Shown here: one piece after another, positions 1,930-42,205 of the stretch
How the letters are laid out: each line of letters opens with the position of its first letter
How positions within the stretch are numbered: position 1 is the stretch's first letter
Assembly (NCBI GenBank): GCA_016207285.1
Contig: JACQPW010000033.1
Coordinates: 1 to 55,037 of the forward strand
DNA from: Candidatus Kerfeldbacteria bacterium
GTDB taxonomy: Bacteria > Patescibacteriota > Patescibacteriia > UBA9570
DNA: 55,037 nucleotides
Reading direction: 5' to 3'
Made by a program: the position numbers and the translations under genes
The notes under the pieces: generated by a model
Seen by the model: the letters and a program-made list of their open reading frames with translations, nothing else
Told to the model about the DNA's origin: nothing
Databases searched by the model: none

Positions 1930-3939
1930 ATGCGTCTGGCTATCATTTCAGTCATCCTCTGTAGTCTGCCAACTCTGGCTTTTGCTCGAACTCTGTTATT
2001 AGAGAACTATCAAAATATTCTGTCGTATTCTACTCAGTATCAGTCATCTTCCCTAGTACTTGGTAGGCATGATGCCTCGGGAGATTTTACCGGTGATGGT
2101 ATCAATGATCTGGTCTACTCGGATCCAAATGACAGTGGTCAAGATAAACGCACTGGTATGGTGCGCCTCTTGCCAGGCAATACTACCATCACAGATCCGA
2201 CTAAAGCGGATACTAGCCTACTGAAGAAAGGTAGTGTGGAAAATGAGCGGCAGGGAGCCAGCCTAAATTATATTGGTGATATCAATGGCGACGGCTTTGA
2301 TGAGATTTTTTCCAGTGGCAAGGTCGGGGATGCCTATCTGTATTTTGGAGCATCAGACCCAACCAATCGCTCTGAAACAGCCCTCACCAGTTTATATGAT
2401 TTCAATTGTTGCTTTGAGGCACTTGGTCCGGCCGATATCAATGGTGACAGTCAAGATGACTTAGTGATCGTTCATAATGATTTTTGGAGAACAGAAACGG
2501 CGGTTTATATTGCCTTTGGCCCCATCGACCCGACCACCGCCTTAACCATTACTGATGTAGCTGATGTGACTATCCCCAATCTGGGCAGGGGTGGTCGTAC
2601 GTATTCTCACAGTGCAACTGGAGACATCAATGGTGATGGATATGATGATTTACTATTAGCTGATGATACCACCTACCCAGACAAAGCTGTCTATCAAATT
2701 GTGTTTGGATCAACCAGCCTGCCAACCACAGTCACAGCATTCGATGCCACGATCGCCTCAAAATATGAACTCACTGACGTGTTGACTGGAGATGTGAACG
2801 GGGATGGCTTAACGGATATACTCTGTCGGCAGGCAAGCAGCAAAGGGTTTTATCTCATATTAGGTTCAGCCGACTTAGCTGGCGAAATCGGTTTAAAAAC
2901 AGCTGCCGTCTCTACCATCCCGTATACATTGGGAGAACCCGCCGAAATTGCCGATCTCAATGCTGATGGTTTAGATGACATCGTCATCGTGAAAGATGAT
3001 TTGGTTGGCTCACATAATCAATACGGTTCAGGGTATATTGTGAATGGGCGTACCGACTGGCCAGCCAGCCTTACTGAACAAGATGCCAGAAGTCAATTTA
3101 TTGGCGGTGGTATGTATGAAGAAATTCCTGTGATATCAGCCGGTGACATTGATGGCGATCAGAAAAATGATTTGATTGTTGGTTCACCATATTATCAGGC
3201 TGGTCAGCCAGCTCGCCTGTATTTACTCACTTCTCGAGATCAGGACAGTGATCAGTTTACTGGTCTATCCGGTGATTGTGATGATACTATCTCCACCATC
3301 AATCCGGATGAACGTGATGATACGGGTGATCAAGTGAATAATGATTGTGATGGTTACACCGATGAAGCTGCGACGTTCTCACCACTCCAAAATGGGAAGA
3401 TCGTGTCAGTTGAATTGTTGCCTTATCAGCAGTTGGTTATCACCTATGCAGATGATTCTAAGCAGAGTATTTTTTTAAGTGAATATAGTAACAAATCGAA
3501 CAAGTATTATAATGCCTTCCATATCCCAGAAACAAAGTTCATCGCTGTCATGAATAATGACTATGGTGACGGTGAAGAATTGTATGTCATGAATGGCTAT
3601 TCAGGAAAAACAGTTGCTCGAGTGGTGGAGCATGTTTCGAACGCATTTCAAACTAACGGTATTCTTCATCTGGATCATACTACTGCGTATGGGCAAGAAC
3701 TGCTGATTGGTGCCAATCATTACGAAGTGGGTGCCGGAGACTATTATTTTCCTACAGAAGTATATCTTTTTTCCGTAGATACAGTTACTGGGCAGATCAT
3801 CTGGCGAGATACTGTGGCTATTGATCAGTTGTACCGTCAAGTAGAGGTCAGGGGTAAAACAATCCAGTTGCTCATTAAGGGAAATACCGTAGCGCAGTTC
3901 AAGATTACCGCAGATCTCACATTAGAACAAACCGAGTAA
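1930..3939 (+). CDS. secreted FG-GAP/VCBS-repeat protein with MopE-like Cys/Asp motif and unknown C-terminal domain
   Basis: 669 aa with a signal-peptide-like N-terminus (MRLAIISVILCSLPTLAFA). Repeated Ca-binding-type loops: GDFTGDGINDL, GDINGDGFDE, ADINGDSQDDL, GDINGDGYDDL, GDVNGDGLTDI, ADLNADGLDDI, GDIDGDQKNDL. Motif DCDDTISTINPDE...NNDCDGYTDE lies at nt 3274-3366. Confidence 0.75.
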   Translation: MRLAIISVILCSLPTLAFARTLLLENYQNILSYSTQYQSSSLVLGRHDASGDFTGDGINDLVYSDPNDSGQDKRTGMVRLLPGNTTITDPTKADTSLLKKGSVENERQGASLNYIGDINGDGFDEIFSSGKVGDAYLYFGASDPTNRSETALTSLYDFNCCFEALGPADINGDSQDDLVIVHNDFWRTETAVYIAFGPIDPTTALTITDVADVTIPNLGRGGRTYSHSATGDINGDGYDDLLLADDTTYPDKAVYQIVFGSTSLPTTVTAFDATIASKYELTDVLTGDVNGDGLTDILCRQASSKGFYLILGSADLAGEIGLKTAAVSTIPYTLGEPAEIADLNADGLDDIVIVKDDLVGSHNQYGSGYIVNGRTDWPASLTEQDARSQFIGGGMYEEIPVISAGDIDGDQKNDLIVGSPYYQAGQPARLYLLTSRDQDSDQFTGLSGDCDDTISTINPDERDDTGDQVNNDCDGYTDEAATFSPLQNGKIVSVELLPYQQLVITYADDSKQSIFLSEYSNKSNKYYNAFHIPETKFIAVMNNDYGDGEELYVMNGYSGKTVARVVEHVSNAFQTNGILHLDHTTAYGQELLIGANHYEVGAGDYYFPTEVYLFSVDTVTGQIIWRDTVAIDQLYRQVEVRGKTIQLLIKGNTVAQFKITADLTLEQTE

Positions 3940-4085: not shown

Positions 4086-4343
4086 GTGCCAGCTATTAGA
4101 GTGCAACGCAACGAAAACGAATCAAACGAAAGCCTAACGCGCCGTTTTGTTCGCAAAGTCCAAGCTAGCGGTAATTTAACCCTAGTGAAAAAGAAACAGC
4201 ATCGTGAACGTCCGGTCAGCAAACGATTGCAGCGTCGCAGCGCCATTCTCCGTTCCAAATCTCGTGATAAACGGGAACACTTACGGAAAATCGGTAAGCT
4301 CGATGAGATCCAAGATCGTTCTAAGCGGAAATTTCGTCGGTAA
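4086..4343 (+). CDS. rpsU: 30S ribosomal protein S21
   Basis: 85 aa, very basic, GTG start 6 nt after GAGGAGGTGA. The translation PAIRVQRNENESNESLTRRFVRKVQASG...KRLQRRSA resembles S21. Confidence 0.85.
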   Translation: MPAIRVQRNENESNESLTRRFVRKVQASGNLTLVKKKQHRERPVSKRLQRRSAILRSKSRDKREHLRKIGKLDEIQDRSKRKFRR

Positions 4344-4371
4344 AAATAAAGCTAAAAACCAAATATTGCGC

Positions 4372-4815
4372 ATGAGCGTTTTTGCCACCATCCAAACAGA
4401 CATGATTTCCGCCATGAAAAGCAAGGTAGAAATTGAGGTCTCCACGTTGCGTGGTTTAAAAGCGGCTATCCAAAAAGATGCGATCGACAGCAAGGGCTCG
4501 CCAGATGATGATCAGCGAGCTTTTGTTGTGTTGAAACAAGAGGCTAAAAAGCGGCAGGATTCTGTCCAAGCTTATCGGGCGGCTGGTCGGAATGATTTAG
4601 CCGATCAAGAGCAAGCGGAGTGGGAGTTGATTAAGCACTATTTGCCGGCACAGTTATCGGAAGCCGAAGTGAAGATCGTGGTGGATCAAGTGGTGCAGGC
4701 CAATGGGGACAATAAAAATTTTGGTTTGTTAATGAAACAGGTCATGCAACAGTTGGATGGTCAAGCCGATGGAAAGGTCGTATCCACTCTTTTGAAACAA
4801 GCACTGACTGTATGA
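4372..4815 (+). CDS. yqeY: GatB/YqeY-domain protein
   Basis: ATG at 4372 (Met57 of the listed 4204 ORF) gives ~147 aa. Typical YqeY pattern: IQTDMISAMKSK...LRGLKAAIQKD...QEAKKRQDSVQAYRAAGRNDLADQEQAEWELIKHYLP...FGLLMKQVMQQLDGQADGKVVSTLLKQ. Its position after rpsU matches the conserved rpsU-yqeY pairing. Confidence 0.8.
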   Translation: MSVFATIQTDMISAMKSKVEIEVSTLRGLKAAIQKDAIDSKGSPDDDQRAFVVLKQEAKKRQDSVQAYRAAGRNDLADQEQAEWELIKHYLPAQLSEAEVKIVVDQVVQANGDNKNFGLLMKQVMQQLDGQADGKVVSTLLKQALTV

Positions 4816-7800
4816 ACCGGTATAAACGTGCCTTGCAACTGTTCCTCGTCTCTGCCAGTGGTTGGGTTTTAACTACCCAGGCTGCCTGGGCGCAAGTCAA
4901 TACCAGTTTTGATTTTGTGTTAGGTGATACCTCGCCAATTGATATCATCATTGCGATCATTAATTGGACGTTAGGTATCTTAGCTCTGATCGCTGTAGTC
5001 ATCATTCTCTATGGGGGCTTTGTCTGGATGACCGCTCAAGGTGATGAGGAGAAGCTCACTAAAGCTAAAGCTATTTTACGTAATGCCTTGATCGGTTTGG
5101 TCATTATTTTGGCCTCATGGGGGATCGCCCGCTACATTATCAACTTGTTCCTTGATCTGACTGGGGCAACCAATGATGAATACTCGACACCGTATGAACC
5201 ATACGAATCATCCAGTGGTTCGCCGTTTTACGTTGATCATTCTAATCCAGCTGATGGCGACGAAGACGTTACGTTGTGTCATATTATTGCCGTTACTTTT
5301 TCTTACCCACTCAACGAATCATCCGTCGATTCCAGCAGCTTCACGGTCACGATTCCAGAAGATTCCGTCACTAACCCGGGTGGTGGGTTGGGCAATAGTG
5401 TGAGTTGTACCTCTGATAACCAGTGTTTGTCGGGTGTCTGCAGCGATGCGGGATCCTGTGATGGTGACGCTGTAGCTGGTTCATTTGCCTTTTCCGAAAG
5501 CAGCTATGCAGCGGTGTTTTATCCCAGTACGGATTACTTATCAGACACCACCTACCGGGTAGAATTAAGCACTGCCGTTGAAGGGATTAGCCCAGACACC
5601 GGTGCTGTTTATAATTTGACCTCTGGTGACGCCAAACGTATTTTTACCTTTACCACTGGTAATACCACTGATGATATTCCCCCCAAGGTAGACGTGACAG
5701 ACGTGACACCCTCCCCTGATGACGATGAAGCCGACATCTGTTTAAATCCAACGTTCCAAGTATCGTTTTCAGAGAGTTTGGATCCCGCCTCTCCAGCAGA
5801 CACCAATGTCTGGCTGTATGCGGCTGCCTCGACACCAACCGATAGTCTAGATTTAGGCACCATTCGTTTAACCAGTATTGGCGGTGAGGCTGATGATACG
5901 ATTGCGACCTCACCAGAATTAGAGCTGTCCAGTTACACCGACTATGGGTTAAGCCTGTATAGTGGTGACAGCACCACTGACACCTTTGAAGGGGCTATTT
6001 ATGATACCTGCGGCAATCCATTGAGTGGTGATTTTGATGATGATATGGAAGGTAGCCCGACGGATGATTTTGTCGATCCGGCTTCCAGTGGGTTAGATCA
6101 AGCCTTTTGTAGCTGCACAACGGGCACTGATAGTTGTAATGTCGATATCGGTAGTAGTAGTTGCGACGTAGATGCTGACACCACTTGTACATTAGACGCT
6201 ACCTGCAGTGATACCAGTGACGATTATGTTGGCTTCACATATCAATGGAACTTTACCACTGGTGACGAACCGTACTGTCTGCCTAATGTCGAAGATATTA
6301 CCCAGGAAGATTATTACTATAGTGAAGATGAAGACCCCACCGGAGATACCGGTAGTGAAGATACTGGGATCGTTTTGATTGAGGGGGAGTATCTGTATCC
6401 GTTCTATGATGTCGACTTTAATAACAATATGTCGGCAGCTGGGATGAACTGTTTTGATACCGATTTTACTTCCAGCATGTCCTGTTTTGTGGATAATATT
6501 GGCAGCACTGCCATCACTGTCCGTACCCCGGTAGCCAGCCAGACCGGACGCATTAGTGTTGAAAATGCTGATGGTGCCGATACGTCTGCCGACACAGCCA
6601 TCATCTTGTCGCCCTATGTGCGTAACACTTCCCCGTTAAGTGGGCCGCCCGGGCAGTATGTTACCATTCGCGGTTCCAACTTTATTGATTATGATCCAGA
6701 TGATACGACCAGTGAGCGTGGCCATGTTTATTTTGATGGAGTAGAGGTGGAAGTGATGTGTGATGATGGTTGGGATGATGATCAAATTATCGTCCGAGTG
6801 CCGGATGAGTATGTGGATGGTGACACGCCATTAATTCAGGTGTTGACCGTTGGGCCAGATGAGTCGGCTGATACCAGCGATGATAAATATAGTAACCATG
6901 AAGGGTTCACCGTCACCTCTGGCAACCCTGGGCCAGGGATTTGTGAGCTTGATCCTAGTTGTAGCGATAGTGGTTTAGATGATGTAGCGGTGATTGGTGA
7001 AAACTTTGGCACCTCTGGCACAGCCTATTTAGATCCGCCCGATGCTGACTATGAAGCTTGGCCAGCCTCGCAGTGGGATGTGTATAATTCTACCTATGAT
7101 AGTCAATCGGTTGTCACTGATGGTGCCAGCAGTCCATTCACAGCACCCAATGACTATACGTTGACCTTAGGTAACTCGGAAGGAATCAGTAATGGTCTAG
7201 ATTTTGATATTACCTGTCACGATTCTCCCCAGGTCTTTCAGTACTACCAGTGCGATTTAGAGCAAGATACCTACTATTTACCGAACCCAACTGGTTACAC
7301 GGATAATGCCTGCGTCAACAGCGTCATCTACTTTGGGTTTACCAATGACATGGATGATGCCACGGTCGAAGCCAATGCCACCATCTATCAATGTAATAGT
7401 ACGGCTACACCGTATGACGCCACTACCTGTACTACTTCCGTTGCTGGAACCTATGTGACCGATTACTTGAATGCCGCTTATCTTGGTGGTGACAGTAGTG
7501 ACACCTTAGATGGTACCGATGACATAGATGGTGACGGTGACATTAATGAATACGATGCCTATAGTGGCTACACCTTTTATCCAGACGGGGGTTTGGATGC
7601 TGCCTACTACTATTTGGTGACACTACCAGTAACCATTACCAATAAGGCCGGTGTCCCACTAGGGAGTGAATACAGCTGGTATTTTGCCGTCCGGGATGAT
7701 ACCGCTAATTGTGTGGCTGATTATTTAGCCTTGAATCCGGCTGCGCAACGGGTCAATAGTTATGATAGTTTTGATGCTTGTTTGGATCAGTATGAGTATA

Positions 7801-10800
7801 ACGATACTAGCTATTCGTTACGAGCTCGTCCAGCTACCTCTGATTGTTTGATCTTAAACGATGCCGGTGATTACGACTGGAGTGTGACGCAGCCAGTTGG
7901 TGCGGACATTTTAAGTTTTGGTGTGAACGATGCTACTACTACGGATATTGCTTATGGTACTACAACCACTACCACGACCAATGGTTATAATACCGTTTGT
8001 TTAGAAGGTGACGATGAGACCAATGATGGCTTAGCGACTGTATCAGCCGAGCTACTAGATTCTAGTGACGGTTCTGTGGCGGCTAGTGATGATGCTACCA
8101 TCGAAGTCGACTTTGGTTTCTGTACCCAAGATAGTGATTGTTACACCGAAGATTGTCGTGATACCTATTGTGATGCTACTACTTCGCATTGTGCTCCCGA
8201 TATTATTGCCTTTACCCCTAACAATAGCACTGGTTCTGACGTTGGCCCCAGTGGTTGTGTCACCTTGTCTGGTTGTTATTTTGGTAACGATCAAGATCAA
8301 GAAGGTTCGTGTACGTGTACGCAACTGGAAGTGAATGATTCCGATACGAGCGATAATGAAACCTGTAGTGTGGATGAAGGGGGCTATAATTGTTTGTTGC
8401 AAGATGGCATCCAAACCTGTAGTTTAGATGCCGATTATTGTGCGTTAGGTGAGACTTGTTCCACTGAATCTACCAGCGCCAATTATGATCTCGGTTTCTT
8501 CCGTGGTTGTGATTGTACGATGACCGATGGAACGGATCGCACCTGTCGCGTTGAAGAAGGCTATACCGAGTGTGTCGCTCAAGGTGATACAGAAACGTGT
8601 GATAGCACTGATAGTAGCTTTGTCGATGGTGGTACGGGTAGTGTTAGCTTTACGGATGCAGCTGCCACTGATTATCCGGCTTCTTTCCCATCGGAAGTGA
8701 TTTGTGAAGATATTTGGGATAACGATCAAGTGATCGCGCAGGTACCGGGCTCGGTGGCTGCGGGTGATTATAGTTTAACCTTAAACAGTTACTATAGTTT
8801 GACTGATATCTACGGTAGCGCCGGTGATGATGCTACAGAGTCAGATTGTACGGTGGGCAGTAACGCTACTCCTTGTTTGTGCCGCGCTGACCCAGATACG
8901 GGACGAGAAAGCACCACTACCGATTTATATGGTGAGGGTTTTGATCTTTTGACTACTGACGGTAATCAGGAGGTGACTTTTTCCCCTTCCACTAGCCGGT
9001 TACCGGCTGATGGTTCAGAAATCTGGACGAGTGCCAATTTCATTGATGAAGTCGTGGTACCAGAAGGGGCGGTGTCAGATGACGAAGGCGTGCAGTTGGA
9101 AAATGATACTTTAGCTTTAACCAGTAATGCTTTATCATTTTCAGTCAGTTGTGGCTCTAACTTAGATTGTGCCACTGGGTGTTGCAGTGCTGGTCAGTGC
9201 GCCACCGCTGAAACTTGTAATGCCTGCGAAAATAGTACAGATTGCACCTATGGAAGCTGCCTATCCGAATGCGCCGATGGCATGTGTGAACCCTACATTA
9301 TTGATGTTAGCCCAGAAGCTGGTGCAGTGGGTCAGCCAGTGACTATTCAAGGTTGTCATTTTGGAACGTACTATAATCCGTCCACCTATACAACAGGTAG
9401 TAAAGTGACTGTGGACGGTATTACCGCCGAATTAGCCTGTAGCGAAGTAGATTCTTGGAATAACCTGCAGATTATTGCCACGATGCCGGATGATATTTTT
9501 GTTGATACCTCTGACACCACGGCCGATGTTGTCGTTACTCAAGTGTATACCAGTGGTGGTGCCCAGGTAGCCCAAACCAGCAACACGGCCGTCTTTAGCC
9601 AGGATGAGAGTTGTTCGGAAGTTGATCTACCAGTATTGTGCGATGCTACCCCAGGCTATAGTCCGTTGACGACCAGTTATGATGTGACCCTAGAAGGGGA
9701 GCAGTTTGCGGATGAAGATAGCGGTTACTGCACCTGTAACACCACTTCCTTAGGTGATTGTGAGATTGCAGAGGGTTCCGCCTCTTGCACGGTTTCTGCT
9801 ACCACCACCTATTATGTCAATCCAGATTTCACCTCTGAAACCTGTGCTACGACCACCTCTAATGCCTATAGTGTCTATGATGGTACGCTTGGGTATTGTG
9901 TGTATACCGATCCTGATGGTGCCACCACAGTGTATTTAGATCCAGAGGATCCTACAGAAGTCTGTGCGACCACGACCACATCAGCTGATACCAATGGTTA
10001 TTCGACCTATTCAGCGACCGATGGGTACTGTACGTACACTGATCCTACAGATGCAACACAGACCTGTGTGATAGCCGTAGGCAACGCTAGTTGTAGTGTA
10101 TGTACCATACCGGTTGACAGCAGCACCTGCTCATTAACGGCTAGCGAGACCTGTTATGTGGATGAAGACGCTACATCAACCACCTGTTCTTCCTCTGTGA
10201 GTAACTTCACCAATTTAGATGGTTCGGCTGAATATTTCAATGATGTGACAGCCAGTGTGGACTGGACTCAATATTACGACACTCAATATATTACCGATGT
10301 GCCCGATGGTTCTGAAACCGGTGATGTACTGGTTATTGCCACTACCGATGCTGGCACCCAATGCAGCAGTAATGGTCTGGAATTCCCAGTCACGTGTGAT
10401 AGTTGCAGTGAGTGTGGTAGCACGCGGGATAACTTATTGAACTGTAATTTGGATTACGATCCCAGTTTTGGTAGTTGCACGGCGGACACCGCTGGGTTCT
10501 GTCGGGATGAACCAGATTCCTGTTGTAATCTATCTAGTTGTGCGTATGATGATAGTGATGGTACAGATACCGGCACCTGTGCCGCTCAACCGATTATTCA
10601 GTTTGACGATGAAGATGCCGATGCCTTGAGTGACTACATCGAAAGTGACTACAGTATGGATGCCGGGTTACAAGATACGGATGATGATGACACGATTGAT
10701 TCTGACGAAGTCGGCGTAGATAATGGTAATTATGCCCTGGATGTGATTGATTCAGCGACCTTCCCCACACCTGGTCAAAATCCTGTCTGTTCTAATGCAC

Positions 10801-13229
10801 AAATTAGTATCCAATTTAGTCAGCCGATTACCACGAGTGCTGTCTTTGACTTCAACGATAACGATACTGTATTGGACGAGAATGGAGACGATATTACTGA
10901 CTTTACCGATGACGTGGCTCCTGAAGATATTGAATTTACCGATTATATCCGGTTGCATTACTCAAGTTTTGCTGACACGAGTACGGTCACAAATATTAGC
11001 GACATAGTTTTATCCAATGATGGTACTACGTTAACGTTCGAGCTGAGTCGTGTACTCCGTCATGGCGTAGAGTTTGAGATTATTATCGAAACGGATGATT
11101 ATCGCTCCGGGATTATCGATGCCGAAACTGGGGTGCCGCTAGGCTGTACTACGGAAATGGAGGATGATGGGTTGTGTTACGATGGTTACCTACGATATAC
11201 CTTTACGACCACTTCCTTGACGCAGTACAGTGATTCCTGTTCACCAGCGTATGTGGTGCTGGAAGCGGACAGTGAGGATTTTCAAGATGCCAATTATACC
11301 TTTAGTGAGTCTGAACAGGAAGAAAGCTTTACTGCCACTGTGTATGCAGCCGGCGAGGATCTCTATCCAGATAATGGTACAACAGATGCAGACGCTGATG
11401 GGGTTGATGATGGCGACGATGATCAGCCGATCACCCGGATTGATGATGGGGCGGACGCTGGGTTTGATTGGACGTATGCGTGGGATCCGATCTATGACAC
11501 CATCGAAGATTTAGAAGCCGCTTCTTGCCCGGTAGCTGGTATTATTACGGATGAGGAAGTCGGTAGCTGTAGCTGTGATGTGGAGGAAAGCTGTGATATT
11601 ACCGCTGGTGATGAAACTTGTACGACCAGCAGTGGTGTCAGTTGTTACACCGATTCACCCAATGCCGAATGTGATGCCTTTGATTCTGGCTATGATCCTA
11701 CCGATAACAATTGTGTCTGTACCGTATCCGATAGTTGCACCATCGAAGCAGCCGAAGCTAGTTGTACGGTGGATATTAATGACACTACGGTTACGTGTAC
11801 AACCGATTCTACCGCTACCACACCAGTCTGTGATACTTCCGATACTGGTTGGTCTGATGGCAGTTTTGTGGAAGATACCGATACGCAAACCTTGACCGCC
11901 GATACACCAGATAGTAATGGTAGTAATACCGATACCATTGAGGTGAGGGTAACGGGAGATGGCTCGGTGGAACAAGGTTGGGGTAGCTCTGTACCTGCCG
12001 CCGAAGGGGATGATCTAACGGATAGCATCTTATTTGATCTCTACTATTGTGATGCCAACTACTTGGTCAGTTATTCGAATGCGGACTATAATTTTTACTG
12101 GCGCTATTGTCGTGGTACCGACCCGCAAGATGAAGACTTCTTGCCTGATTTTTCTACGCCGGTGTTTGAACGCAGCGATACAGACATTGATACCGCCTAT
12201 GGTAGCGATCAAGAATTTATTTACGAAGTTGCCTTTAAAGATGCGACAGCCGGGAGCAACGATCCTACCACTAATAATAACTTGGTGGCAGTGCGGGTAT
12301 ACCCCAATGACTTTGATGGTGATTTAACCACCCCAGGGGATAGTGTGAATCCAGATCTGTGGTACTTATTGAATACCAATAATGCGGATGCTTCCTCTAG
12401 CGCCACGACCATTGATGGTTATGATGCGGTCGAGGTGGGTAACACTACCTATGTAGCGGCCACCAACTTAGACGATGGTACTGGTATTGTTTCACCGTAT
12501 ATTTATGTGATTGCCTACAGCAGCGATGCCGATGAGGAGACGACAGCAGTCGTAGCAGCTTTACTAGAAGGCTTTAAGTTCAACCGTAATGATGAACTAT
12601 CCGCTAGTTGTGCTATTGAGAAAGTTGCGCTCATTGCGGATGCCGACCGAGTAACGGATCTAGGAACCATTGCCTATGTATTAAGCAGTTATTATTACAA
12701 TGATACGGATTTGAATGGTACAGATGATTTCCCAGCCCTGGCCAGTGGGTCGTATATTTCTGGATTTACTACCTCTATCTGGCCGTCGTGGAACGATACC
12801 TTTGGTACGCTATTGGGGCAGACCTTAGATACCGATCCTGTGAATGCCTTTGCTGATGCCGAAACCAGTTGCCCGTATGATCCACCAGATTTGTCCGCCG
12901 GCGAAACGACCGGTACGTATTATGATGAAACGGGCACCTGTTGGGATCCAGTGCTAGAAGATTTCTATGGTCCAGCCGATTCAGAGCTCTATCTCTATCA
13001 ATACCATGATGCCGACGATTTTGCGCTCTATACTAACTTAGAATATGATGGCACCGGTAGTTGGATTGAGGCCAAATATGATCCTTGCACCTCCTATTAC
13101 GATGATGGTACAACGGCGACGACGGCTGACGCTATTAGCGCTTACTCTGATAGTGGTTGCGGTACGTTCGATTATATAGTGGAGGATAGCGAAACGACTG
13201 ATAATACCACCTATGACGACCTCTTCTAG
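4812..13229 (+). CDS. giant (2805 aa) membrane-anchored, highly acidic, Cys-rich surface protein with Ig-like (SbsA/Big_5-like) and IPT/TIG-like modules
   Basis: Uninterrupted 8.4-kb ORF whose ATG overlaps the yqeY stop (ATGA). The N-terminus has a signal-like segment plus two TM helices flanking GGFVWMTAQGDEEKLTKAKAIL. IPT/TIG-like segments follow (e.g. SGPPGQYVTIRGSNF...VYFDGVEVEV; SPEAGAVGQPVTIQGCHFG). There are many CxC-containing Cys modules, and the composition is D/E/T/S-rich and K/R-poor. Confidence 0.85.
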   Translation: MNRYKRALQLFLVSASGWVLTTQAAWAQVNTSFDFVLGDTSPIDIIIAIINWTLGILALIAVVIILYGGFVWMTAQGDEEKLTKAKAILRNALIGLVIILASWGIARYIINLFLDLTGATNDEYSTPYEPYESSSGSPFYVDHSNPADGDEDVTLCHIIAVTFSYPLNESSVDSSSFTVTIPEDSVTNPGGGLGNSVSCTSDNQCLSGVCSDAGSCDGDAVAGSFAFSESSYAAVFYPSTDYLSDTTYRVELSTAVEGISPDTGAVYNLTSGDAKRIFTFTTGNTTDDIPPKVDVTDVTPSPDDDEADICLNPTFQVSFSESLDPASPADTNVWLYAAASTPTDSLDLGTIRLTSIGGEADDTIATSPELELSSYTDYGLSLYSGDSTTDTFEGAIYDTCGNPLSGDFDDDMEGSPTDDFVDPASSGLDQAFCSCTTGTDSCNVDIGSSSCDVDADTTCTLDATCSDTSDDYVGFTYQWNFTTGDEPYCLPNVEDITQEDYYYSEDEDPTGDTGSEDTGIVLIEGEYLYPFYDVDFNNNMSAAGMNCFDTDFTSSMSCFVDNIGSTAITVRTPVASQTGRISVENADGADTSADTAIILSPYVRNTSPLSGPPGQYVTIRGSNFIDYDPDDTTSERGHVYFDGVEVEVMCDDGWDDDQIIVRVPDEYVDGDTPLIQVLTVGPDESADTSDDKYSNHEGFTVTSGNPGPGICELDPSCSDSGLDDVAVIGENFGTSGTAYLDPPDADYEAWPASQWDVYNSTYDSQSVVTDGASSPFTAPNDYTLTLGNSEGISNGLDFDITCHDSPQVFQYYQCDLEQDTYYLPNPTGYTDNACVNSVIYFGFTNDMDDATVEANATIYQCNSTATPYDATTCTTSVAGTYVTDYLNAAYLGGDSSDTLDGTDDIDGDGDINEYDAYSGYTFYPDGGLDAAYYYLVTLPVTITNKAGVPLGSEYSWYFAVRDDTANCVADYLALNPAAQRVNSYDSFDACLDQYEYNDTSYSLRARPATSDCLILNDAGDYDWSVTQPVGADILSFGVNDATTTDIAYGTTTTTTTNGYNTVCLEGDDETNDGLATVSAELLDSSDGSVAASDDATIEVDFGFCTQDSDCYTEDCRDTYCDATTSHCAPDIIAFTPNNSTGSDVGPSGCVTLSGCYFGNDQDQEGSCTCTQLEVNDSDTSDNETCSVDEGGYNCLLQDGIQTCSLDADYCALGETCSTESTSANYDLGFFRGCDCTMTDGTDRTCRVEEGYTECVAQGDTETCDSTDSSFVDGGTGSVSFTDAAATDYPASFPSEVICEDIWDNDQVIAQVPGSVAAGDYSLTLNSYYSLTDIYGSAGDDATESDCTVGSNATPCLCRADPDTGRESTTTDLYGEGFDLLTTDGNQEVTFSPSTSRLPADGSEIWTSANFIDEVVVPEGAVSDDEGVQLENDTLALTSNALSFSVSCGSNLDCATGCCSAGQCATAETCNACENSTDCTYGSCLSECADGMCEPYIIDVSPEAGAVGQPVTIQGCHFGTYYNPSTYTTGSKVTVDGITAELACSEVDSWNNLQIIATMPDDIFVDTSDTTADVVVTQVYTSGGAQVAQTSNTAVFSQDESCSEVDLPVLCDATPGYSPLTTSYDVTLEGEQFADEDSGYCTCNTTSLGDCEIAEGSASCTVSATTTYYVNPDFTSETCATTTSNAYSVYDGTLGYCVYTDPDGATTVYLDPEDPTEVCATTTTSADTNGYSTYSATDGYCTYTDPTDATQTCVIAVGNASCSVCTIPVDSSTCSLTASETCYVDEDATSTTCSSSVSNFTNLDGSAEYFNDVTASVDWTQYYDTQYITDVPDGSETGDVLVIATTDAGTQCSSNGLEFPVTCDSCSECGSTRDNLLNCNLDYDPSFGSCTADTAGFCRDEPDSCCNLSSCAYDDSDGTDTGTCAAQPIIQFDDEDADALSDYIESDYSMDAGLQDTDDDDTIDSDEVGVDNGNYALDVIDSATFPTPGQNPVCSNAQISIQFSQPITTSAVFDFNDNDTVLDENGDDITDFTDDVAPEDIEFTDYIRLHYSSFADTSTVTNISDIVLSNDGTTLTFELSRVLRHGVEFEIIIETDDYRSGIIDAETGVPLGCTTEMEDDGLCYDGYLRYTFTTTSLTQYSDSCSPAYVVLEADSEDFQDANYTFSESEQEESFTATVYAAGEDLYPDNGTTDADADGVDDGDDDQPITRIDDGADAGFDWTYAWDPIYDTIEDLEAASCPVAGIITDEEVGSCSCDVEESCDITAGDETCTTSSGVSCYTDSPNAECDAFDSGYDPTDNNCVCTVSDSCTIEAAEASCTVDINDTTVTCTTDSTATTPVCDTSDTGWSDGSFVEDTDTQTLTADTPDSNGSNTDTIEVRVTGDGSVEQGWGSSVPAAEGDDLTDSILFDLYYCDANYLVSYSNADYNFYWRYCRGTDPQDEDFLPDFSTPVFERSDTDIDTAYGSDQEFIYEVAFKDATAGSNDPTTNNNLVAVRVYPNDFDGDLTTPGDSVNPDLWYLLNTNNADASSSATTIDGYDAVEVGNTTYVAATNLDDGTGIVSPYIYVIAYSSDADEETTAVVAALLEGFKFNRNDELSASCAIEKVALIADADRVTDLGTIAYVLSSYYYNDTDLNGTDDFPALASGSYISGFTTSIWPSWNDTFGTLLGQTLDTDPVNAFADAETSCPYDPPDLSAGETTGTYYDETGTCWDPVLEDFYGPADSELYLYQYHDADDFALYTNLEYDGTGSWIEAKYDPCTSYYDDGTTATTADAISAYSDSGCGTFDYIVEDSETTDNTTYDDLF

Positions 13230-13827
13230 CCAAGTAGAGGATATCTTTGCTGACCAAACCGAGGTTTCGTTACCAACTGAACCAGAGCCGCCCGTCCTTG
13301 ATACAGATACTACAGATACGGCGTCCAGTGTTACCCCACTGGTCGCTCCACGGCGGTCGTATGGCCGGCTGATCTTAATCATTGCCAGCTGCTTGTTGGC
13401 TTTGCTATTATTAGGTGGTATTGGGTTTGGTGTTTGGGTCTGGTTGCAGACTCCGCCAGACGATGGAACCAACCTAAGCAATGACAATGTGAACGTGGTT
13501 GTTCCAGTGGTCAATACAAATGACAATACCAATGATCCTGTGGTGGTGACGCCAACCAACACCACGGTGGATGTCACACCTACCTTCGTAGACGTTGACC
13601 ACGATGGTTTGTCCGACGGTGAGGAGTTGATCGTCAACACCAACCCGAAGAAAAAAGATACCGATGAGGATGGTTTGTCTGATCGCGAAGAAGTCCGGGT
13701 CTATAATACTGATCCACGTAATCCAGATACGGATGGAGATGGCTATACTGATGGAGATGAAGTAACGCACTCTTACCACCCCAATAGTTCAGACCCTAAA
13801 AAACGTTTATTCGATTTACCACAATAA
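13213..13827 (+). CDS. single-pass membrane protein with thrombospondin type-3-like Ca-binding repeats
   Basis: 204 aa, overlapping the giant ORF by 17 nt. TM segment LILIIASCLLALLLLGGIGFGVWVWL, an N/V/T low-complexity linker, then DVDHDGLSDGEE, DTDEDGLSDREE and DTDGDGYTDGDE repeats. Confidence 0.65.
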   Translation: MTTSSSQVEDIFADQTEVSLPTEPEPPVLDTDTTDTASSVTPLVAPRRSYGRLILIIASCLLALLLLGGIGFGVWVWLQTPPDDGTNLSNDNVNVVVPVVNTNDNTNDPVVVTPTNTTVDVTPTFVDVDHDGLSDGEELIVNTNPKKKDTDEDGLSDREEVRVYNTDPRNPDTDGDGYTDGDEVTHSYHPNSSDPKKRLFDLPQ

Positions 13828-13838
13828 AAATAAATCCT

Positions 13839-15140
13839 ATGGATTTTCCAAGTGCACCACAACCACAAACCCCGACCACTCCTCCTATGCCACCTGCCTT
13901 CCCGACTCCAAGTCCCGCTCCGGCTCCTACCCCGGTTCCACCGCAACCAATGATGACACCGACCTTTCCAAGCGTGGCTGCTCAACCTGTACAGATTCCG
14001 GTGCAAACGCATGCGGCTGGGCCGATGGGTAGCGATGACCAAATTTATACAATGCCAGAGAAATTTATTCCGGCTAATCAGGCTCCGGTAACCACAGCCA
14101 AACGCCCGCGTAAAACCATGACCATTATCTTAATCGTGGTGATTGTGTTAGCGGTCTTATCTATCATTGGTGGTGTGGCCTTTTATGTTTGGCAAATGAT
14201 GTCGACCGAAACCGTGGTCACGGATGCAAACAATGCTGTGGTGGTGAATACGCCGGTTAATAATGCGAATACTAATAGCGCGAATACCAATTTGGATAAT
14301 GCTAATACTAACGACAATGCCAACGTTGTGAATGTCAATGACGACGATAACGGTAACGACAATGCGAATGCAAACAGCAATGCTAATGACAATGTGAATG
14401 CTGATACCAATACGAATGCGGCTAATACCAACACAGTCAATACAAATACAACCAACACAAACACCACAACAGCTGTGGTTCCGCCTCCCAGTAAGGATAC
14501 CGATCAAGATAGCTTAACCAACGAAGAAGAAAAGATCTGGGGTACCAAAGCTGATTTACCAGACACTGATAGTGACGGCTATAACGACGGTGTTGAAATT
14601 TTGGCTGGTTATGATCCTACCAGTGCTGTGAGTTCTACTCGTTTGTCGGCTAGCGCACTCGTCAGTACCTTTACGAATAGTGAATATAATTATACCTTGC
14701 TCTATCCCAAGAATTGGCTAGCTGAAGGCTTAACTGGTGGTGATGGCAGTGAAATTCTGATTACGCCTAATACGCTAGATTTAACTGGTCAGTTTATTGC
14801 CATTACCGTGGCTGGTAATCCTACCGGGTTTACGGCCGTTGATTGGTATATGGATACCGCCGATGTCACAGAAGCCGAAGTCGAGACCTTTACGACCTTT
14901 GCTGGTCAAACGGGTGCCTGGAGTACCGATCATACTACGGCTTATCTGACTGATACGGACTATGTGTATGCCATTAGTTATCGCTATGGCAATAGTGATA
15001 CCCTTTATTTTCCAGCGACGCATGAGATGATGTTGAAGAGTATGACATTTACCGAAGTAACTACCAAGAAAAAAGATTCCACCAACACTAACGAGAACAC
15101 CAACGAAGATTCCAATACGAATGCCAACGCTAACAATTGA
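13839..15140 (+). CDS. membrane protein: Pro-rich N-terminus, TM, Asn-rich linker, TSP3-like repeats, unknown C-terminal globular domain
   Basis: 433 aa. PQPQTPTTPPMPPAFPTPSPAP region, TM segment MTIILIVVIVLAVLSIIGGVAFYVW, a long NANTN-type low-complexity tract, DTDQDSLTNEEE and DTDSDGYNDGVE repeats, then a ~150-aa non-repetitive domain. Confidence 0.65.
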   Translation: MDFPSAPQPQTPTTPPMPPAFPTPSPAPAPTPVPPQPMMTPTFPSVAAQPVQIPVQTHAAGPMGSDDQIYTMPEKFIPANQAPVTTAKRPRKTMTIILIVVIVLAVLSIIGGVAFYVWQMMSTETVVTDANNAVVVNTPVNNANTNSANTNLDNANTNDNANVVNVNDDDNGNDNANANSNANDNVNADTNTNAANTNTVNTNTTNTNTTTAVVPPPSKDTDQDSLTNEEEKIWGTKADLPDTDSDGYNDGVEILAGYDPTSAVSSTRLSASALVSTFTNSEYNYTLLYPKNWLAEGLTGGDGSEILITPNTLDLTGQFIAITVAGNPTGFTAVDWYMDTADVTEAEVETFTTFAGQTGAWSTDHTTAYLTDTDYVYAISYRYGNSDTLYFPATHEMMLKSMTFTEVTTKKKDSTNTNENTNEDSNTNANANN

Positions 15141-39039: not shown

Positions 39040-40482
39040 ATGATCACATCTAGTTTGAAACGAGTTGAGCTAATCATTGGTGCATTATTGGTGCCATTAG
39101 ATTACATCATGATGATCGCCGCTGGTTATACAGCGTACGTGGTTCGGTTTGGAAATACGGTTAGTACTTTGCGCGCCGCTGTCTATGTGTTGCCGTTTGG
39201 TGACTACATGAAAATCCTCTTAGCCTCGGCAGTGGTCATGGTGATTATTTTTGCCTTCAACCGCATGTACGATATTACCGGCACACGGCGGATTCTAGAT
39301 GAGTTGCGTAAAATAGTACTAGCTTGTTCCACTGGAGTGTTGATTGTGATGATCCTGTTCTTTTTTAATCGGGAGTTATTTTCTTCGCGCTTTATTATTT
39401 TATCTGCCTGGTTGTTGAGCGTGACGTATCTGGCGGCGATGCGTTTAACAGTGATTATCGTTGAACGCTGGTTGTTTCGTCGCGGTATCGGCGTGCACCG
39501 CGTCTTGCTGATTGGTTCATCGCGCACCGCTAGCATTTTATTTGATGCCTTTCGTAACAGTCCTAGTTTAGGGTATAGCGTAATTGAACGTGCCTTGGTG
39601 GCCGACGCCTCGCTGTTTGATAAGATTAATAAAGTGATTAAGATCAAAGCGATTGATGACATTATTGTGGCCGACCAAGAGTTATCGCGTGAGCAAATTG
39701 CCCGCTTAATCGAGTTCAGTAAAATTCACCACCTTGATTTCAAATATGCCGCCGATATTTTTGATACCCAGGTGTCGCATATTGCGATGCGCCCAGTGGC
39801 TGGTATTCCGTTGGTGGAATTACGCCGGACGCCGTTACAAGGGTGGGGGCGCATTTTTAAGCGCGCGATTGATGTGGTTTTTTCTAGTTTGGCGTTAGTG
39901 GTCTTTTCGCCCGTGATGTTGGCAACGGCTATTGCGGTACGGTTAGATTCAGCCGGCCCAGTGATCTATAAAAATCGCCGCGTCGGAGAAACCGGTAGAG
40001 AATTTGATACCTTGAAGTTTCGCTCAATGAAAAAAGAGTATTGCATCGGTGAGCAGTTTGGTAATCCGGCTGCTGCTTTGGCCTTAGAACAAAAATTGAT
40101 CCAGGAGCAGAGCATTAAAACGGGTCCGGTTTATAAAATCAAAGATGACCCCAGAGTGACACGTGTTGGCAAATTTATTCGTAAATATTCTTTAGACGAG
40201 TTTCCGCAATTTTGGAATGTCTTGAAAGGGGAGATGAGTTTAGTGGGTCCACGACCACACCAGCCGCGCGAAGTGGAACAGTACGCGGATTATGAGCGCG
40301 CTATTTTGACGATGAAACCAGGTGTCTCTGGTTTGGCGCAAATTTCTGGCCGATCGGATTTAGAGTTTTCGGAAGAAATGCGCCTGGACACCTATTATAT
40401 GGAGAACTGGAGTATTTTGCTGGATGTGTATATTCTATTTAAAACCCCGTTTACCTTATTGAAAAAACGTTCCGCGTTATGA
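39040..40482 (+). CDS. undecaprenyl-phosphate sugar phosphotransferase (WbaP/Bac_transf family)
   Basis: 480 aa. N-terminal TM bundle plus a C-terminal catalytic domain with KRAIDVVFS, GPVIYKNRRVG, KFRSM, DEFPQFWNVLKGEMSLVGPRP. Confidence 0.88.
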   Translation: MITSSLKRVELIIGALLVPLDYIMMIAAGYTAYVVRFGNTVSTLRAAVYVLPFGDYMKILLASAVVMVIIFAFNRMYDITGTRRILDELRKIVLACSTGVLIVMILFFFNRELFSSRFIILSAWLLSVTYLAAMRLTVIIVERWLFRRGIGVHRVLLIGSSRTASILFDAFRNSPSLGYSVIERALVADASLFDKINKVIKIKAIDDIIVADQELSREQIARLIEFSKIHHLDFKYAADIFDTQVSHIAMRPVAGIPLVELRRTPLQGWGRIFKRAIDVVFSSLALVVFSPVMLATAIAVRLDSAGPVIYKNRRVGETGREFDTLKFRSMKKEYCIGEQFGNPAAALALEQKLIQEQSIKTGPVYKIKDDPRVTRVGKFIRKYSLDEFPQFWNVLKGEMSLVGPRPHQPREVEQYADYERAILTMKPGVSGLAQISGRSDLEFSEEMRLDTYYMENWSILLDVYILFKTPFTLLKKRSAL

Positions 40483-41579
40483 AGATAGCCTTAGTACATG
40501 ATCATTTAGCTCAAGATGGTGGTGCCGAAAAAGTCCTACAAGCTTTTCAGCGTATTTGGCCAGATGCCCCTACCTATGTCATTGTGCATGATCCTCAATC
40601 TGCCAATGCCGCTTTTAAGGGTAAGGATATTCGCACTTCCTTTTTGCAACGTTGGCCTGGCGGGGTGAAACACTACCAGTGGTTTTTTCCCTTGATGCCG
40701 ACCGCCGTCGAAAGTTATGATCTGATGGAATACGATGTGGTGCTCTCGAGTACCGCTTCCTTTGCCAAAGGGGTGATTACACGACCAGAGACGTTGCATA
40801 TTTGTTATTGTCACACGCCGACGCGTTATTTATGGAGTGATACCCATGATTATGTACAGGAGCTAGAGGTGAATCGGGTGATCAAATGGTTTTTGCCGTT
40901 TTTTCTAACCTATGTGCGCTTGTGGGATAAAGTGGCCGCGGATCGAGTGGATCGTTTCGTTGCCAATTCACGTTTGGTTCAAGATCGCATCACTAAATAT
41001 TATAACAAGTCAGCCGACTTGATTTATCCGCCAGTGGATACTCAACAGTTTAAGATTGGTCCAGTGGGTGACTATTATTTGGCGGGTGGTCGGTTGGTGC
41101 CCTATAAGCGATTTGACCTCATTGTCGATGCTTTTAATCATCTTGGTCGAAAATTAAAAGTGTTTGGTGATGGTCCAGAACTAAAACAATTACGTGCTCG
41201 GGCTGGCAGCAATATCGAATTTGTGGGTCGCGTTGATGATGTTGAACTGGCCAAACTGTATAGTGGCTGCTTGGCCTTTATTAACCCCCAAGTAGAAGAT
41301 TTCGGTATTACCATGGTAGAAGCCATGGCGGCTGGTCGCCCCGTATTTGCCTTTCGAGCGGGGGGTGCCCGTGAGATCATTCAACCAGGTGTGACCGGTG
41401 AGTGGTTCGATTATCAGACCTGGGAAGATTTAGCGGATTTGATTGTGCGGGTGGATCCCATGCGCTATGATTCGGCCGTTATTCAGCAGCAAGCCCAGTT
41501 ATTTTCCACGGATCAGTTTGAGCAAAAAATGAAAGCCTTTGTGGAAGGTGCATATAGTGAGTTTACACGTCAGCGCTGA
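40479..41579 (+). CDS. glycosyltransferase, GT4 (GT-B) family
   Basis: 366 aa. MKIALVHDHL...GGAEKV N-terminus and E-x7-E-like region EDFGITMVEAMAAGRPV. ATGA overlap with the upstream gene. Confidence 0.85.
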   Translation: MKIALVHDHLAQDGGAEKVLQAFQRIWPDAPTYVIVHDPQSANAAFKGKDIRTSFLQRWPGGVKHYQWFFPLMPTAVESYDLMEYDVVLSSTASFAKGVITRPETLHICYCHTPTRYLWSDTHDYVQELEVNRVIKWFLPFFLTYVRLWDKVAADRVDRFVANSRLVQDRITKYYNKSADLIYPPVDTQQFKIGPVGDYYLAGGRLVPYKRFDLIVDAFNHLGRKLKVFGDGPELKQLRARAGSNIEFVGRVDDVELAKLYSGCLAFINPQVEDFGITMVEAMAAGRPVFAFRAGGAREIIQPGVTGEWFDYQTWEDLADLIVRVDPMRYDSAVIQQQAQLFSTDQFEQKMKAFVEGAYSEFTRQR

Positions 41580-42203: not shown

Positions 42204-42205
42204 CG

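What the first reader, a model, noticed from the sequence alone, without database searches (positions are those of the whole stretch)
6103..11835. Recurrent, apparently undescribed CxC-type cysteine module scattered through the giant protein
At least seven copies of a ~30-45-aa module occur with the spacing C-x-C-x(4-13)-C-x-[IV]-x(2,3)-[GA]-x(2,4)-C-x(3-10)-C. Examples:
- FCSCTTGTDSCNVDIGSSSCDVDADTTC
- GSCTCTQLEVNDSDTSDNETCSVDEGGYNC
- RGCDCTMTDGTDRTCRVEEGYTEC
- GYCTCNTTSLGDCEIAEGSASC
- GSCSCDVEESCDITAGDETC
- NNCVCTVSDSCTIEAAEASC

The modules alternate with IPT/TIG-like and Ig-like segments in a protein nearly devoid of Lys and Arg. I cannot match the module to EGF, TSP1, CXXCXGXG or other named Cys repeats. 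It may be a disulfide- or metal-stabilised mini-domain.
Basis: seen in the sequence. Interest (0 to 1): 0.65.

Follow-up and report, generated by a model that had tools for sequence, protein, structure and literature searches.

The report
Six-cysteine mini-domain inserted in Ig-like domains
A giant, very acidic surface protein of an uncultivated Patescibacteria (Kerfeldbacteria-like) bacterium carries repeated copies of a roughly 40-residue, six-cysteine, probably disulfide-stapled mini-domain that matches no described family or solved fold and sits as whole cassettes inside loops of its Ig-like domains.

Summary
ORF 4812-13229 encodes 2805 aa with 4.1% Cys and 1.9% Lys+Arg. It holds six full copies and two partial copies of a module, C-x-C-x(4-16)-C-x8-C-x(5-10)-C-x(3-12)-C. 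The core pattern occurs 6 times against 0.05 expected by shuffling.

The six Cys are invariant in 89 non-redundant copies from about 30 orthologues (35-84% identity). Non-Cys module positions are less conserved than the rest of the protein (30% vs 47% mean pairwise identity).

The modules do not simply alternate with Ig-like domains. They are inserted in loops: B, C and D in the loop after the G-x-x-F strand of IPT domains, and A in a Big_5 domain. They are gained and lost as whole cassettes.

Cys counts in the four insertion regions are even in 76/76 cases. Conserved Cys are lost in pairs. Both point to disulfides rather than metal sites.

AlphaFold gives a confident small beta-meander (pLDDT 92.5). 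Pfam, NCBIfam, PDB sequences and Foldseek on PDB and BFVD give no match. A profile search of 1.84 billion proteins finds the full module only in this protein family, which occurs in 10 GTDB species.

Verdict: a genuine, undescribed, lineage-restricted disulfide-rich mini-domain. Its function is inferred to be structural or adhesive. Interest is moderate.

The parts
4812..13229 (+). Giant ORF (2805 aa): signal peptide, VirB2-like T4SS_pilin membrane hairpin, then about 2700 aa of acidic, Cys-rich extracytoplasmic chain
   Evidence: full-length orthologues at 35-67% identity in Patescibacteria/Kerfeldbacteria
4941..5138 (+). T4SS_pilin (PF18895) domain, aa 44-109, two hydrophobic helices
   Evidence: Pfam E 2.1e-10, 40.9 bits vs cutoff 26.6; NCBIfam Mbov_0395 pilin-like, below cutoff
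5223..5657 (+). Big_5 bacterial Ig-like domain, aa 138-282
   Evidence: Pfam E 3.3e-12
6099..6212 (+). Module A (aa 430-467, Cys 433/435/442/451/459/465), inserted late in a second, weakly matching Big_5-like domain, before its YQWNFTTG strand
   Evidence: HMM 38 bits; absent as a whole cassette in P0003 and P0025; Big_5 on aa 300-385, E 3.3e-4, below cutoff
6612..6854 (+). Uninterrupted IPT/TIG domain (aa 601-681), reference for the host fold
   Evidence: Pfam TIG E 1.5e-9, 38.1 bits vs cutoff 20.9
8187..8831 (+). IPT domain (aa 1126-1340) split by modules B and C in the loop after GCYFG
   Evidence: With the insert removed it aligns across the splice point to both Pfam-verified IPT domains: hhalign Prob 98%, E 2e-13 and 4e-13. 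AF2 strand order is consistent
8301..8444 (+). Module B (aa 1164-1211; Cys 1167/1169/1185/1194/1203/1210)
   Evidence: pLDDT above 90 in model m8efd1ff2a010
8457..8615 (+). Module C (aa 1216-1268; Cys 1216 upstream, then 1233/1235/1245/1254/1263). A variant in which the sixth Cys lies before the CxC. Absent in P0023 and P0025
9291..9536 (+). Second uninterrupted IPT/TIG domain (aa 1494-1575)
   Evidence: Pfam TIG E 4.2e-5, 23.9 bits vs cutoff 20.9
9627..10391 (+). IPT-like domain (aa 1606-1860) split by the D composite insert
   Evidence: The spliced host aligns to IPT1 with hhalign Prob 88%, E 3e-6, but not to IPT3 (Prob 3%)
9723..9824 (+). Module D (aa 1638-1671; Cys 1640/1642/1650/1659)
   Evidence: P0008 lost C3 and C4 of this module together
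9795..10046 (+). Two copies of a second nested unit, YYVNP...C...GYC-x-Y-TDP (aa 1662-1745). One copy in most orthologues. Also inserted into modules B and C of P0009
   Evidence: read from the sequence and the alignments
10026..10193 (+). Partial modules (aa 1739-1794): CxY variant, a duplicated C-x8-C hairpin, then C5 and C6
   Evidence: HMM stretches 1739-1763 and 1763-1794; the extra hairpin lies in alignment columns that are gaps in at least 80% of the aligned orthologues
11562..11678 (+). Module E (aa 2251-2289; Cys 2253/2255/2261/2270/2278/2287)
   Evidence: AF2 pLDDT 92.5
11706..11837 (+). Module F (aa 2299-2342; Cys 2301/2303/2309/2318/2329/2340)
   Evidence: absent in P0019; E and F both absent in P0021; three copies at this site in P0013

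Best explanation
The recurring unit is an autonomous, roughly 35-50-residue, six-cysteine mini-domain. Its framework is C1-x-C2-x(4-16)-C3-x8-C4-x(5-10)-C5-x(3-12)-C6, with the core hairpin C3-x-[IV]-x2-[G/D]-x3-C4.

It folds as a small antiparallel beta-meander, probably held by three intramodule disulfides. I infer that C3-C4 staple the central hairpin and that C1 and C2 bond to C5 and C6.

It is not a bead between domains. It is spliced as a cassette into surface loops of the protein's beta-sandwich domains: the loop after the G-x-x-F strand of IPT domains, and a late loop of a Big_5-like domain. It can host further nested insertions.

The host is a Sec-exported giant protein held in the membrane by a VirB2-like pilin hairpin. 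Its acidic Ig-like chain projects from the cell of an episymbiotic-type Patescibacterium.

Shown: the module, its Cys invariance, its cassette behaviour, its position inside IPT domains, even Cys parity, paired Cys loss, a confident predicted fold, and the absence of any known family or fold match.

Inferred: that the Cys form disulfides, the pairing scheme, and the role. I take the role to be protease-resistant, rigid excrescences that brace or decorate the surface fibre and contribute to its contact surface.
For: - Module statistics: 6 core matches vs 0.05 expected, 0 of 5000 shuffles.
- Six Cys are invariant and nothing else reaches 90% in 89 non-redundant modules.
- Cys columns are at least 90% conserved in orthologues down to 35% identity. 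Non-Cys module positions are 30% identical on average, against 47% for the rest.
- Whole-cassette presence or absence is seen at all four sites, with nested inserts in P0009.
- Cys counts are even in 76 of 76 insertion regions, with counts ranging from 0 to 22 and about 14 distinct states.
- Conserved Cys are substituted in pairs in four independent cases. One is C3+C4 of module D in P0008.
- P0001 has an extra hairpin that adds exactly C-x8-C.
- AF2: the E+F model has pLDDT 92.5 and pTM 0.71, all beta. In the IPT+B+C model the module part scores above 90.
- The host with its insert removed aligns to Pfam-verified IPT domains across the junction, Prob 98%.
- The N-terminal T4SS_pilin domain scores above the Pfam cutoff.
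- Other predicted exported proteins in the window also have even Cys counts of 0-6.
Against: - No model coordinates were available, so S-S distances and connectivity could not be read.
- The DSSP register of the model places [IV], not C3, opposite C4. That does not obviously favour a C3-C4 staple.
- The C3-C4 pairing rests on only two events.
- The whole protein has an odd number of Cys (115), so at least one is unpaired.
- No Dsb, VKOR or thiol oxidase gene lies in the 55-kb window. Many Patescibacteria live in anoxic water.
- dN/dS is about 0.08 both in modules and elsewhere, with dS saturated. There is no sign of diversifying selection that would support a recognition role.
- There is no experimental or expression evidence.
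Confidence: 0.68

Rival explanations
1. The module is a metal-binding (thiolate cluster) mini-domain. The CxC and spaced Cys would ligate Zn, Cu, Cd or Fe, as in metallothionein or Zn2Cys6-type clusters, outside the cell of an anaerobe in which disulfides would not be stable.
For: CxC is a classical metallothionein motif (own knowledge). There are six Cys per module. No thiol oxidase was seen in the window. The protein is extremely acidic and might bind cations generally.
Against: Every Cys sits in a short beta-strand of a confidently predicted meander. There are no His or other ligand motifs. Conserved Cys are lost strictly in pairs, including the two hairpin Cys. Inserted sub-units add 2, 4 or 6 Cys, and parity is even in 76 of 76 regions. 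That pattern fits pairwise bonds better than fixed 4- or 6-ligand sites. The location is extracytoplasmic (and sequence).
Confidence: 0.1
2. The module is a divergent EGF-like (or CREMP/DPY-like) domain, that is, a remote member of a known family rather than a new one.
For: It has about 40 aa, six Cys, a C-x8-C hairpin with a central Gly, and a CxC motif. A weak profile match covers the hairpin of the avian CREMP modules (E 1.1). CREMP and EGF share the Cx4Cx5Cx8C spacing (PMC12723725).
Against: The order of motifs differs. Here CxC precedes the hairpin by a variable loop, whereas in EGF the hairpin is followed directly by C-x-C. No EGF, laminin-EGF, PSI, TSP1 or TNFR model in Pfam matches at E<=10. 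No EGF-containing PDB chain matches the profile at E<=10. Foldseek finds no EGF structure. The paired loss of C3+C4 argues against the EGF and CREMP connectivity, in which the hairpin Cys bond elsewhere (PMC12723725).
Confidence: 0.1
3. The modules are variable ligand or host-recognition knobs, displayed on Ig-like scaffolds in the way knob mini-domains sit on bovine ultralong CDR H3. Their main role would be binding specificity rather than stability.
For: They protrude from loops of Ig-like domains. Non-Cys positions are the least conserved part of the protein. The C2-C3 loop varies from 4 to 16 residues and accepts nested inserts. Cassette content differs between species. The giant protein evolves much faster than neighbouring housekeeping genes: 46-70% identity against 80-97% for FtsA.
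Against: dN/dS is about 0.08 in modules, the same as in the rest of the protein, although dS is saturated. The Foldseek hit to a cow ultralong-CDR Fab is not significant (E 5.7e-3, TM 0.14). No partner is known.
Confidence: 0.25

Closest known systems
EGF-like domain (Pfam PF00008 and relatives)
   Same: About 40 aa. Six Cys forming three disulfides. A beta-hairpin core with C-x8-C spacing and a Gly turn. Contains a CxC motif. An extracellular mosaic module in very large structural and adhesive proteins.
   Different: The Cys framework is in a different order. Connectivity is inferred to differ (C3-C4 staple vs 1-3, 2-4, 5-6). No sequence or fold match. Inserted inside Ig-like domains rather than strung between them. 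Bacterial.
CREMP (avian eggshell membrane) and DPY two-disulfide modules (PDB 9pgb, 1OIG; PMC12723725)
   Same: The hairpin motif C-x-[MV]-x-D-G-x3-C is nearly identical to the module core. Both are tandem disulfide-rich structural modules. This was the best PDB profile hit after MET IPT.
   Different: The hit is not significant (E 1.1). CREMP has four Cys with 1-3 and 2-4 pairing. It is an animal protein. It has no CxC strand.
PSI domains interleaved with IPT domains in plexins, MET and semaphorin receptors
   Same: Small Cys-rich modules combined with IPT/TIG domains in a long extracellular stalk.
   Different: PSI is a separate eight-Cys domain lying between IPT domains. No Pfam PSI match here. 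The present module sits inside the IPT loop.
Knob mini-domain of bovine ultralong CDR H3 antibodies (e.g. PDB 4k3e)
   Same: A small disulfide-rich mini-domain with an even Cys number, projecting from a loop of an Ig-fold domain. 4k3e was the top-ranked Foldseek row for the IPT+B+C model.
   Different: The match is not significant (E 5.7e-3, prob 0.20, TM 0.14). Origin and generation mechanism are unrelated. This is an analogy only.
Giant T4SS_pilin (PF18895)-anchored Ig-like proteins of Patescibacteria, some with the Myxococcus cysteine-rich repeat PF13948
   Same: Same overall protein class: N-terminal VirB2-like domain plus Big_5 and TIG domains, 1,700-3,800 aa, Cys-rich.
   Different: The distant members (P0033-P0065) contain no copy of this module. 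PF13948 does not match the window protein.

Membership tests
EGF-like domain | Match to Pfam EGF-type profiles or to EGF-containing solved chains | tested here: not met
   No EGF-family hit at E<=10 on the module segments. The module profile against 177,635 PDB sequences at E<=10 returned only MET IPT and CREMP.
EGF-like domain | Cys framework C-x(4-7)-C-x(3-5)-C-x8-C-x-C-x(8-13)-C | tested here: not met
   The observed framework is C-x-C-x(4-16)-C-x8-C-x(5-10)-C-x(3-12)-C in 89 copies.
EGF-like domain | Disulfide connectivity 1-3, 2-4, 5-6 | tested here: inconclusive
   No coordinates or chemistry were available. Paired loss of the two hairpin Cys in P0008 and the gain of a C-x8-C hairpin in P0001 suggest that they bond to each other.
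PSI domain (PF01437) | Profile match; eight-Cys framework | tested here: not met
   No Pfam hit; six Cys per unit.
IPT/TIG domain (host of modules B, C and D) | Pfam PF01833 match above the gathering score | tested here: met
   Two uninterrupted copies: E 1.5e-9 (38.1 bits) and 4.2e-5 (23.9 bits), cutoff 20.9. The interrupted hosts do not hit Pfam TIG even after the insert is removed. They do align to those two copies by hhalign: Prob 98% for the B/C host and 88% for the D host.
T4SS_pilin (PF18895, VirB2-like) | Profile match above cutoff with two hydrophobic helices | tested here: met
   E 2.1e-10, 40.9 bits vs 26.6, aa 44-109. The two hydrophobic stretches are visible in the sequence.
Metallothionein-like or Zn-cluster Cys domains | Metal occupancy; Cys used as ligand sets | not testable with these tools
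   Indirect evidence only: pairwise Cys loss and even parity favour disulfides.
Myxococcus cysteine-rich repeat (PF13948) | Profile match | tested here: not met
   Present in distant homologues P0054, P0058, P0061, P0063 and P0065 but not in the window protein at E<=1.

The most novel reading that the evidence does not exclude
The module is a new disulfide-rich fold with no solved counterpart. It has evolved as a transposable 'loop cassette' for bacterial Ig-like domains, and can even nest inside itself. It would serve as the host-contact knobs of a VirB2-anchored surface fibre that Kerfeldbacteria-like episymbionts use to recognise their partner cells. That would make it a bacterial analogue of knob-on-Ig display.
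Probability: 0.2. Interest if true: 0.65.

Novelty: new variant of a known kind. Interest (0 to 1): 0.45.

Why it matters
Patescibacteria make up a large part of bacterial diversity, yet how they attach to hosts is largely unknown. Their giant pilin-anchored surface proteins are obvious candidates and are almost entirely unannotated.

Defining a confident, compact six-Cys module gives annotators a new domain model. It explains why the interrupted IPT domains in this protein go undetected by Pfam.

It gives structural biologists a small, probably very stable scaffold that tolerates loop-length variation and nested insertions.

The paired-loss and parity analysis also indicates that these organisms carry out oxidative folding of exported proteins.

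The module is confined to a narrow lineage (10 GTDB species) and has no demonstrated function, so the impact is moderate.

Tried and rejected
- Pfam on the whole protein and on module segments, and NCBIfam on the whole protein: no family for the module.
- Pfam TIG on the host domains with the insert cut out: no significant hit, only DUF4469 'Ig-like' at E 0.018. This was resolved with hhalign against the protein's own IPT domains.
- PDB sequence search with the module profile and with the whole protein: nothing.
- Foldseek of the E+F model against PDB and BFVD: nothing with E below 1 and TM at most 0.33, normalised by query length.
- Foldseek of the IPT+B+C model: only weak Ig/Fab rows, all with TM at or below 0.20.
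- Profile search of 1.84 billion representatives: outside the family only hairpin-only matches ('PSCTIAAGASTCNV' in unrelated repeat proteins P0066-P0069 and P0072) and one low-complexity protein, P0070. Those proteins have no informative Pfam annotation. A single diverged copy scores too low (about 30 bits) to be detected in a library of that size, so isolated copies elsewhere cannot be excluded.
- Recent duplication or assembly artefact: rejected, since there are no DNA repeats.
- Positive selection in modules: not detectable (dN/dS about 0.08, dS saturated).
- Search for Dsb or VKOR genes in the window: none.
- Literature searches for Cys-rich giant proteins of the Candidate Phyla Radiation (CPR, i.e. 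Patescibacteria): no description of this module.
Full report
**1. The gene and its setting**

The finding lies in one ORF, window 4812-13229 (+), encoding 2805 aa. Its composition is extreme: D 13.4%, T 12.4%, S 10.0%, C 4.1% (115 Cys), K 0.46%, R 1.39%. No other ORF in the window exceeds 2.5% Cys.

The N-terminus reads as a signal peptide followed by a T4SS_pilin (VirB2-like, PF18895) domain at aa 44-109 (E 2.1e-10, above cutoff). A Big_5 Ig-like domain follows. Two segments scanned on their own match IPT/TIG above the gathering score: aa 601-681 at E 1.5e-9 and aa 1494-1575 at E 4.2e-5.

Neighbouring genes are housekeeping (HisRS, YqeY, FtsA, FtsZ, NrdR, RNR) or surface-type (FG-GAP, TSP3_bac, G8/beta-helix, BNR).

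Full-length orthologues (35-67% identity) come from Patescibacteria and Candidatus Kerfeldbacteria metagenome assemblies. The gene order HisRS-YqeY-giant-TSP3_bac-unknown-FtsA-FtsZ is kept in the related GTDB species genomes, as far as each contig reaches. This is a conserved chromosomal gene. It evolves much faster than its neighbours: giant termini are 46-88% identical across those genomes, against 80-97% for FtsA.

**2. Is the module real?**

C-x-C occurs seven times, about the number expected by chance (4.7). The composite patterns are far above chance:
- Core CxC-x(4,16)-C-x8-C: 6 observed vs 0.047 expected.
- Six-Cys pattern: 4 vs 0.002.
- Hairpin C-x-[IVL]-x2-[GAD]-x3-C: 9 vs 0.21.

None of 5000 composition-preserving shuffles reached these counts.

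From the 32 closest homologues I extracted 89 distinct six-Cys units. In their alignment (A1) the six Cys are the only invariant columns, and nothing else reaches 90%. An HMM of A1 finds eight stretches in the window protein. Six are full modules: A at aa 430-467, B 1164-1211, C 1232-1268, D 1638-1671, E 2251-2289 and F 2299-2342. Two are partial, at 1739-1794.

There is no nucleotide-level repeat in the gene. The copies are old and are not an assembly artefact.

**3. Conservation pattern**

In a 19-sequence orthologue alignment the module Cys columns are conserved in at least 90% of sequences, except where a whole module is missing. Non-Cys module positions average 30% pairwise identity, against 47% for non-Cys positions elsewhere.

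dN/dS is about 0.08 both inside and outside modules for the two closest pairs, and dS is saturated. The modules are a relaxed scaffold. They are not demonstrably under diversifying selection.

**4. Cassette behaviour and position inside host domains**

Modules come and go as whole units:
- A is absent in P0003 and P0025.
- C is absent in P0023 and P0025.
- F is absent in P0019.
- E and F are both absent in P0021.
- P0013 has three copies at the E/F site.
- P0009 carries extra nested inserts inside the C2-C3 loops of B and C.

The AF2 model of aa 1124-1345 shows IPT-type strands before residue 30 and after residue 154 of the model, with the two modules between them.

I removed the insert and compared the spliced host with the protein's own Pfam-verified IPT domains. 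This gave hhalign probabilities of 98% (E 2e-13 and 4e-13), with the alignment running across the splice point. The insert replaces the short loop 'NFIDYDPDDTTSERG' that follows the G-x-x-F strand. The host of module D aligns likewise to IPT1 (Prob 88%, E 3e-6), though not to IPT3.

Module A sits between the 'CGNPL' motif and the final 'YQWNFTTG' strand of a weakly matching Big_5-like domain.

The modules are therefore loop insertions in beta-sandwich domains. This also explains why Pfam TIG misses those domains.

**5. Disulfide or metal?**

Cys counts in the four insertion regions are even in all 76 cases (19 orthologues x 4 regions). Counts range from 0 to 22, with about 14 distinct states.

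Across 25 homologues, substitutions of otherwise conserved Cys occur in pairs:
- C861+C873 in P0024.
- C990+C1063 in P0023 and P0025.
- C1868+C1889 in P0022.
- C1650+C1659 in P0008, inside a module. These are C3 and C4 of module D.

The only singleton is C1346.

The window protein also has an extra hairpin that adds exactly C-x8-C. These data fit pairwise covalent partners and suggest that C3-C4 staple the central hairpin. C1 and C2 would then bond to C5 and C6.

This pairing is an inference from two events. I could not read model coordinates. The DSSP register of the model, with [IV] opposite C4, does not settle the matter.

No Dsb or VKOR gene is in the window. Other exported proteins there also have even Cys counts.

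**6. Fold and comparison with known families**

AF2 on modules E+F with only 17 sequences gave mean pLDDT 92.5 and pTM 0.71, all beta. Each module is a long hairpin formed by the CxC strand and the C3 strand, followed by two short strands carrying C4 and C5. In the second model the module part scores above 90 while the IPT host scores lower.

Searches found no counterpart:
- Foldseek of the E+F model: no PDB match (best E 3.5, TM at most 0.16) and no BFVD match (best E 1.3).
- The module profile against all PDB sequences: only non-significant rows. These were MET IPT strands (E 0.39) and the avian CREMP two-disulfide modules (E 1.1), whose hairpin C-x-M-x-D-G-x3-C resembles the core.

CREMP, DPY and EGF share the hairpin but use 1-3 and 2-4 pairing and a different Cys order (PMC12723725).

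The top Foldseek row for the IPT+B+C model was a bovine Fab with an ultralong CDR H3 (E 5.7e-3, TM 0.14). This is an appealing analogy, a disulfide knob on an Ig loop, but it is not evidence.

**7. Distribution**

hmmsearch of A1 against 1.84 billion representative proteins gave 16 hits at E<=1e-3. Ten belong to this giant-protein family. The others match only the hairpin (profile positions 10-26) in unrelated repeat proteins, or are low complexity.

More distant pilin-anchored giant proteins (P0033-P0065) have no copy. A pattern scan of one genome per GTDB species found the IPT+B+C segment in 10 species, all Patescibacteria-type MAGs. Several of these are titled 'Gammaproteobacteria'.

One limitation applies. 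A single diverged copy scores about 30 bits and would not be significant in a library that large.

**8. Interpretation**

Best explanation (confidence 0.68): a new, lineage-restricted, disulfide-stapled beta-meander mini-domain, used as an insertable cassette in loops of Ig-like domains of a membrane-anchored, highly acidic surface fibre.

The structural statements are well supported. The role is inferred from context, namely rigid, protease-resistant braces or decorations that contribute to the contact surface.

VirB2-like pilins are widespread in Patescibacteria. Genes for T4SS components, and a pilin array in one species, are reported as essential (PMC12102498). That paper does not discuss giant fusions or this module.

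Rivals are metal binding (0.10), a divergent EGF or CREMP relative (0.10), and a primary role as variable recognition knobs (0.25, overlapping with the main reading).

**9. Verdict**

The added findings are the six-Cys definition, insertion inside IPT and Big_5 domains, cassette and nesting behaviour, parity and paired-loss evidence for disulfides, a confident predicted fold without a known counterpart, and the narrow taxonomic range.

Novelty: a new variant of a known kind, the small disulfide-rich extracellular modules. Interest is moderate (0.45).

Noticed in passing
window 48208-49818 (+): A 536-aa membrane protein with a weak Pfam match to TMEM260-like protein O-mannosyltransferase (E 5.8e-6, 26.6 bits vs cutoff 24.2). 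Human TMEM260 is reported (own knowledge) to O-mannosylate IPT domains of plexins and MET. A Thr/Ser-rich IPT-bearing giant protein is encoded 35 kb away, next to a glycosyltransferase cluster (39040-44384).
   Followed up: no
window 9795-10046 (aa 1662-1745): A second nested repeat type, 'YYVNPxxxxExC...GYCxYTDP', with two Cys per unit. There are two copies here and one in most orthologues. The same unit is inserted into the C2-C3 loops of modules B and C in P0009.
   Followed up: partly
window aa 199-216, 1104-1127, 1447-1492, 1862-1923 (nt about 5406-5459, 8121-8192, 9150-9287, 10395-10580): Cys-dense knots of another type (C-x5-C-x4-C-x4/5-C...). Two of them lie directly N-terminal of IPT domains, a PSI-like position. 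They have no Pfam match.
   Followed up: no
window 4204-15140; loci L001-L010: The gene order HisRS-YqeY-giant-TSP3_bac-433-aa protein-FtsA-FtsZ is conserved in the ten related species genomes, as far as each contig reaches. The YqeY stop overlaps the giant gene's ATG (4812-4815). The TSP3_bac ORF overlaps its 3' end (13213-13229), which suggests co-translation. The FG-GAP gene at 1930-3939 was found only in the window.
   Followed up: partly
loci L001, L003, L004, L008, L009: MAG contigs that carry this Patescibacteria-type gene cluster are titled 'uncultured Gammaproteobacteria bacterium' in their records. This is probably a blanket mislabel.
   Followed up: no
whole ORF, aa 861/873, 990/1063, 1868/1889: Outside the modules, conserved Cys are also lost in pairs in single orthologues. 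These pairs are likely disulfide partners in the host domains. C1346 is lost alone in P0022-P0025.
   Followed up: partly
locus L001 (CAZSXL010000036.1): The closest relative (84% aa identity) has its longest open frame starting only at nt 3827, although the gene's N-terminus matches at nt 1504-1992. This points to a frameshift or assembly error in that contig.
   Followed up: no
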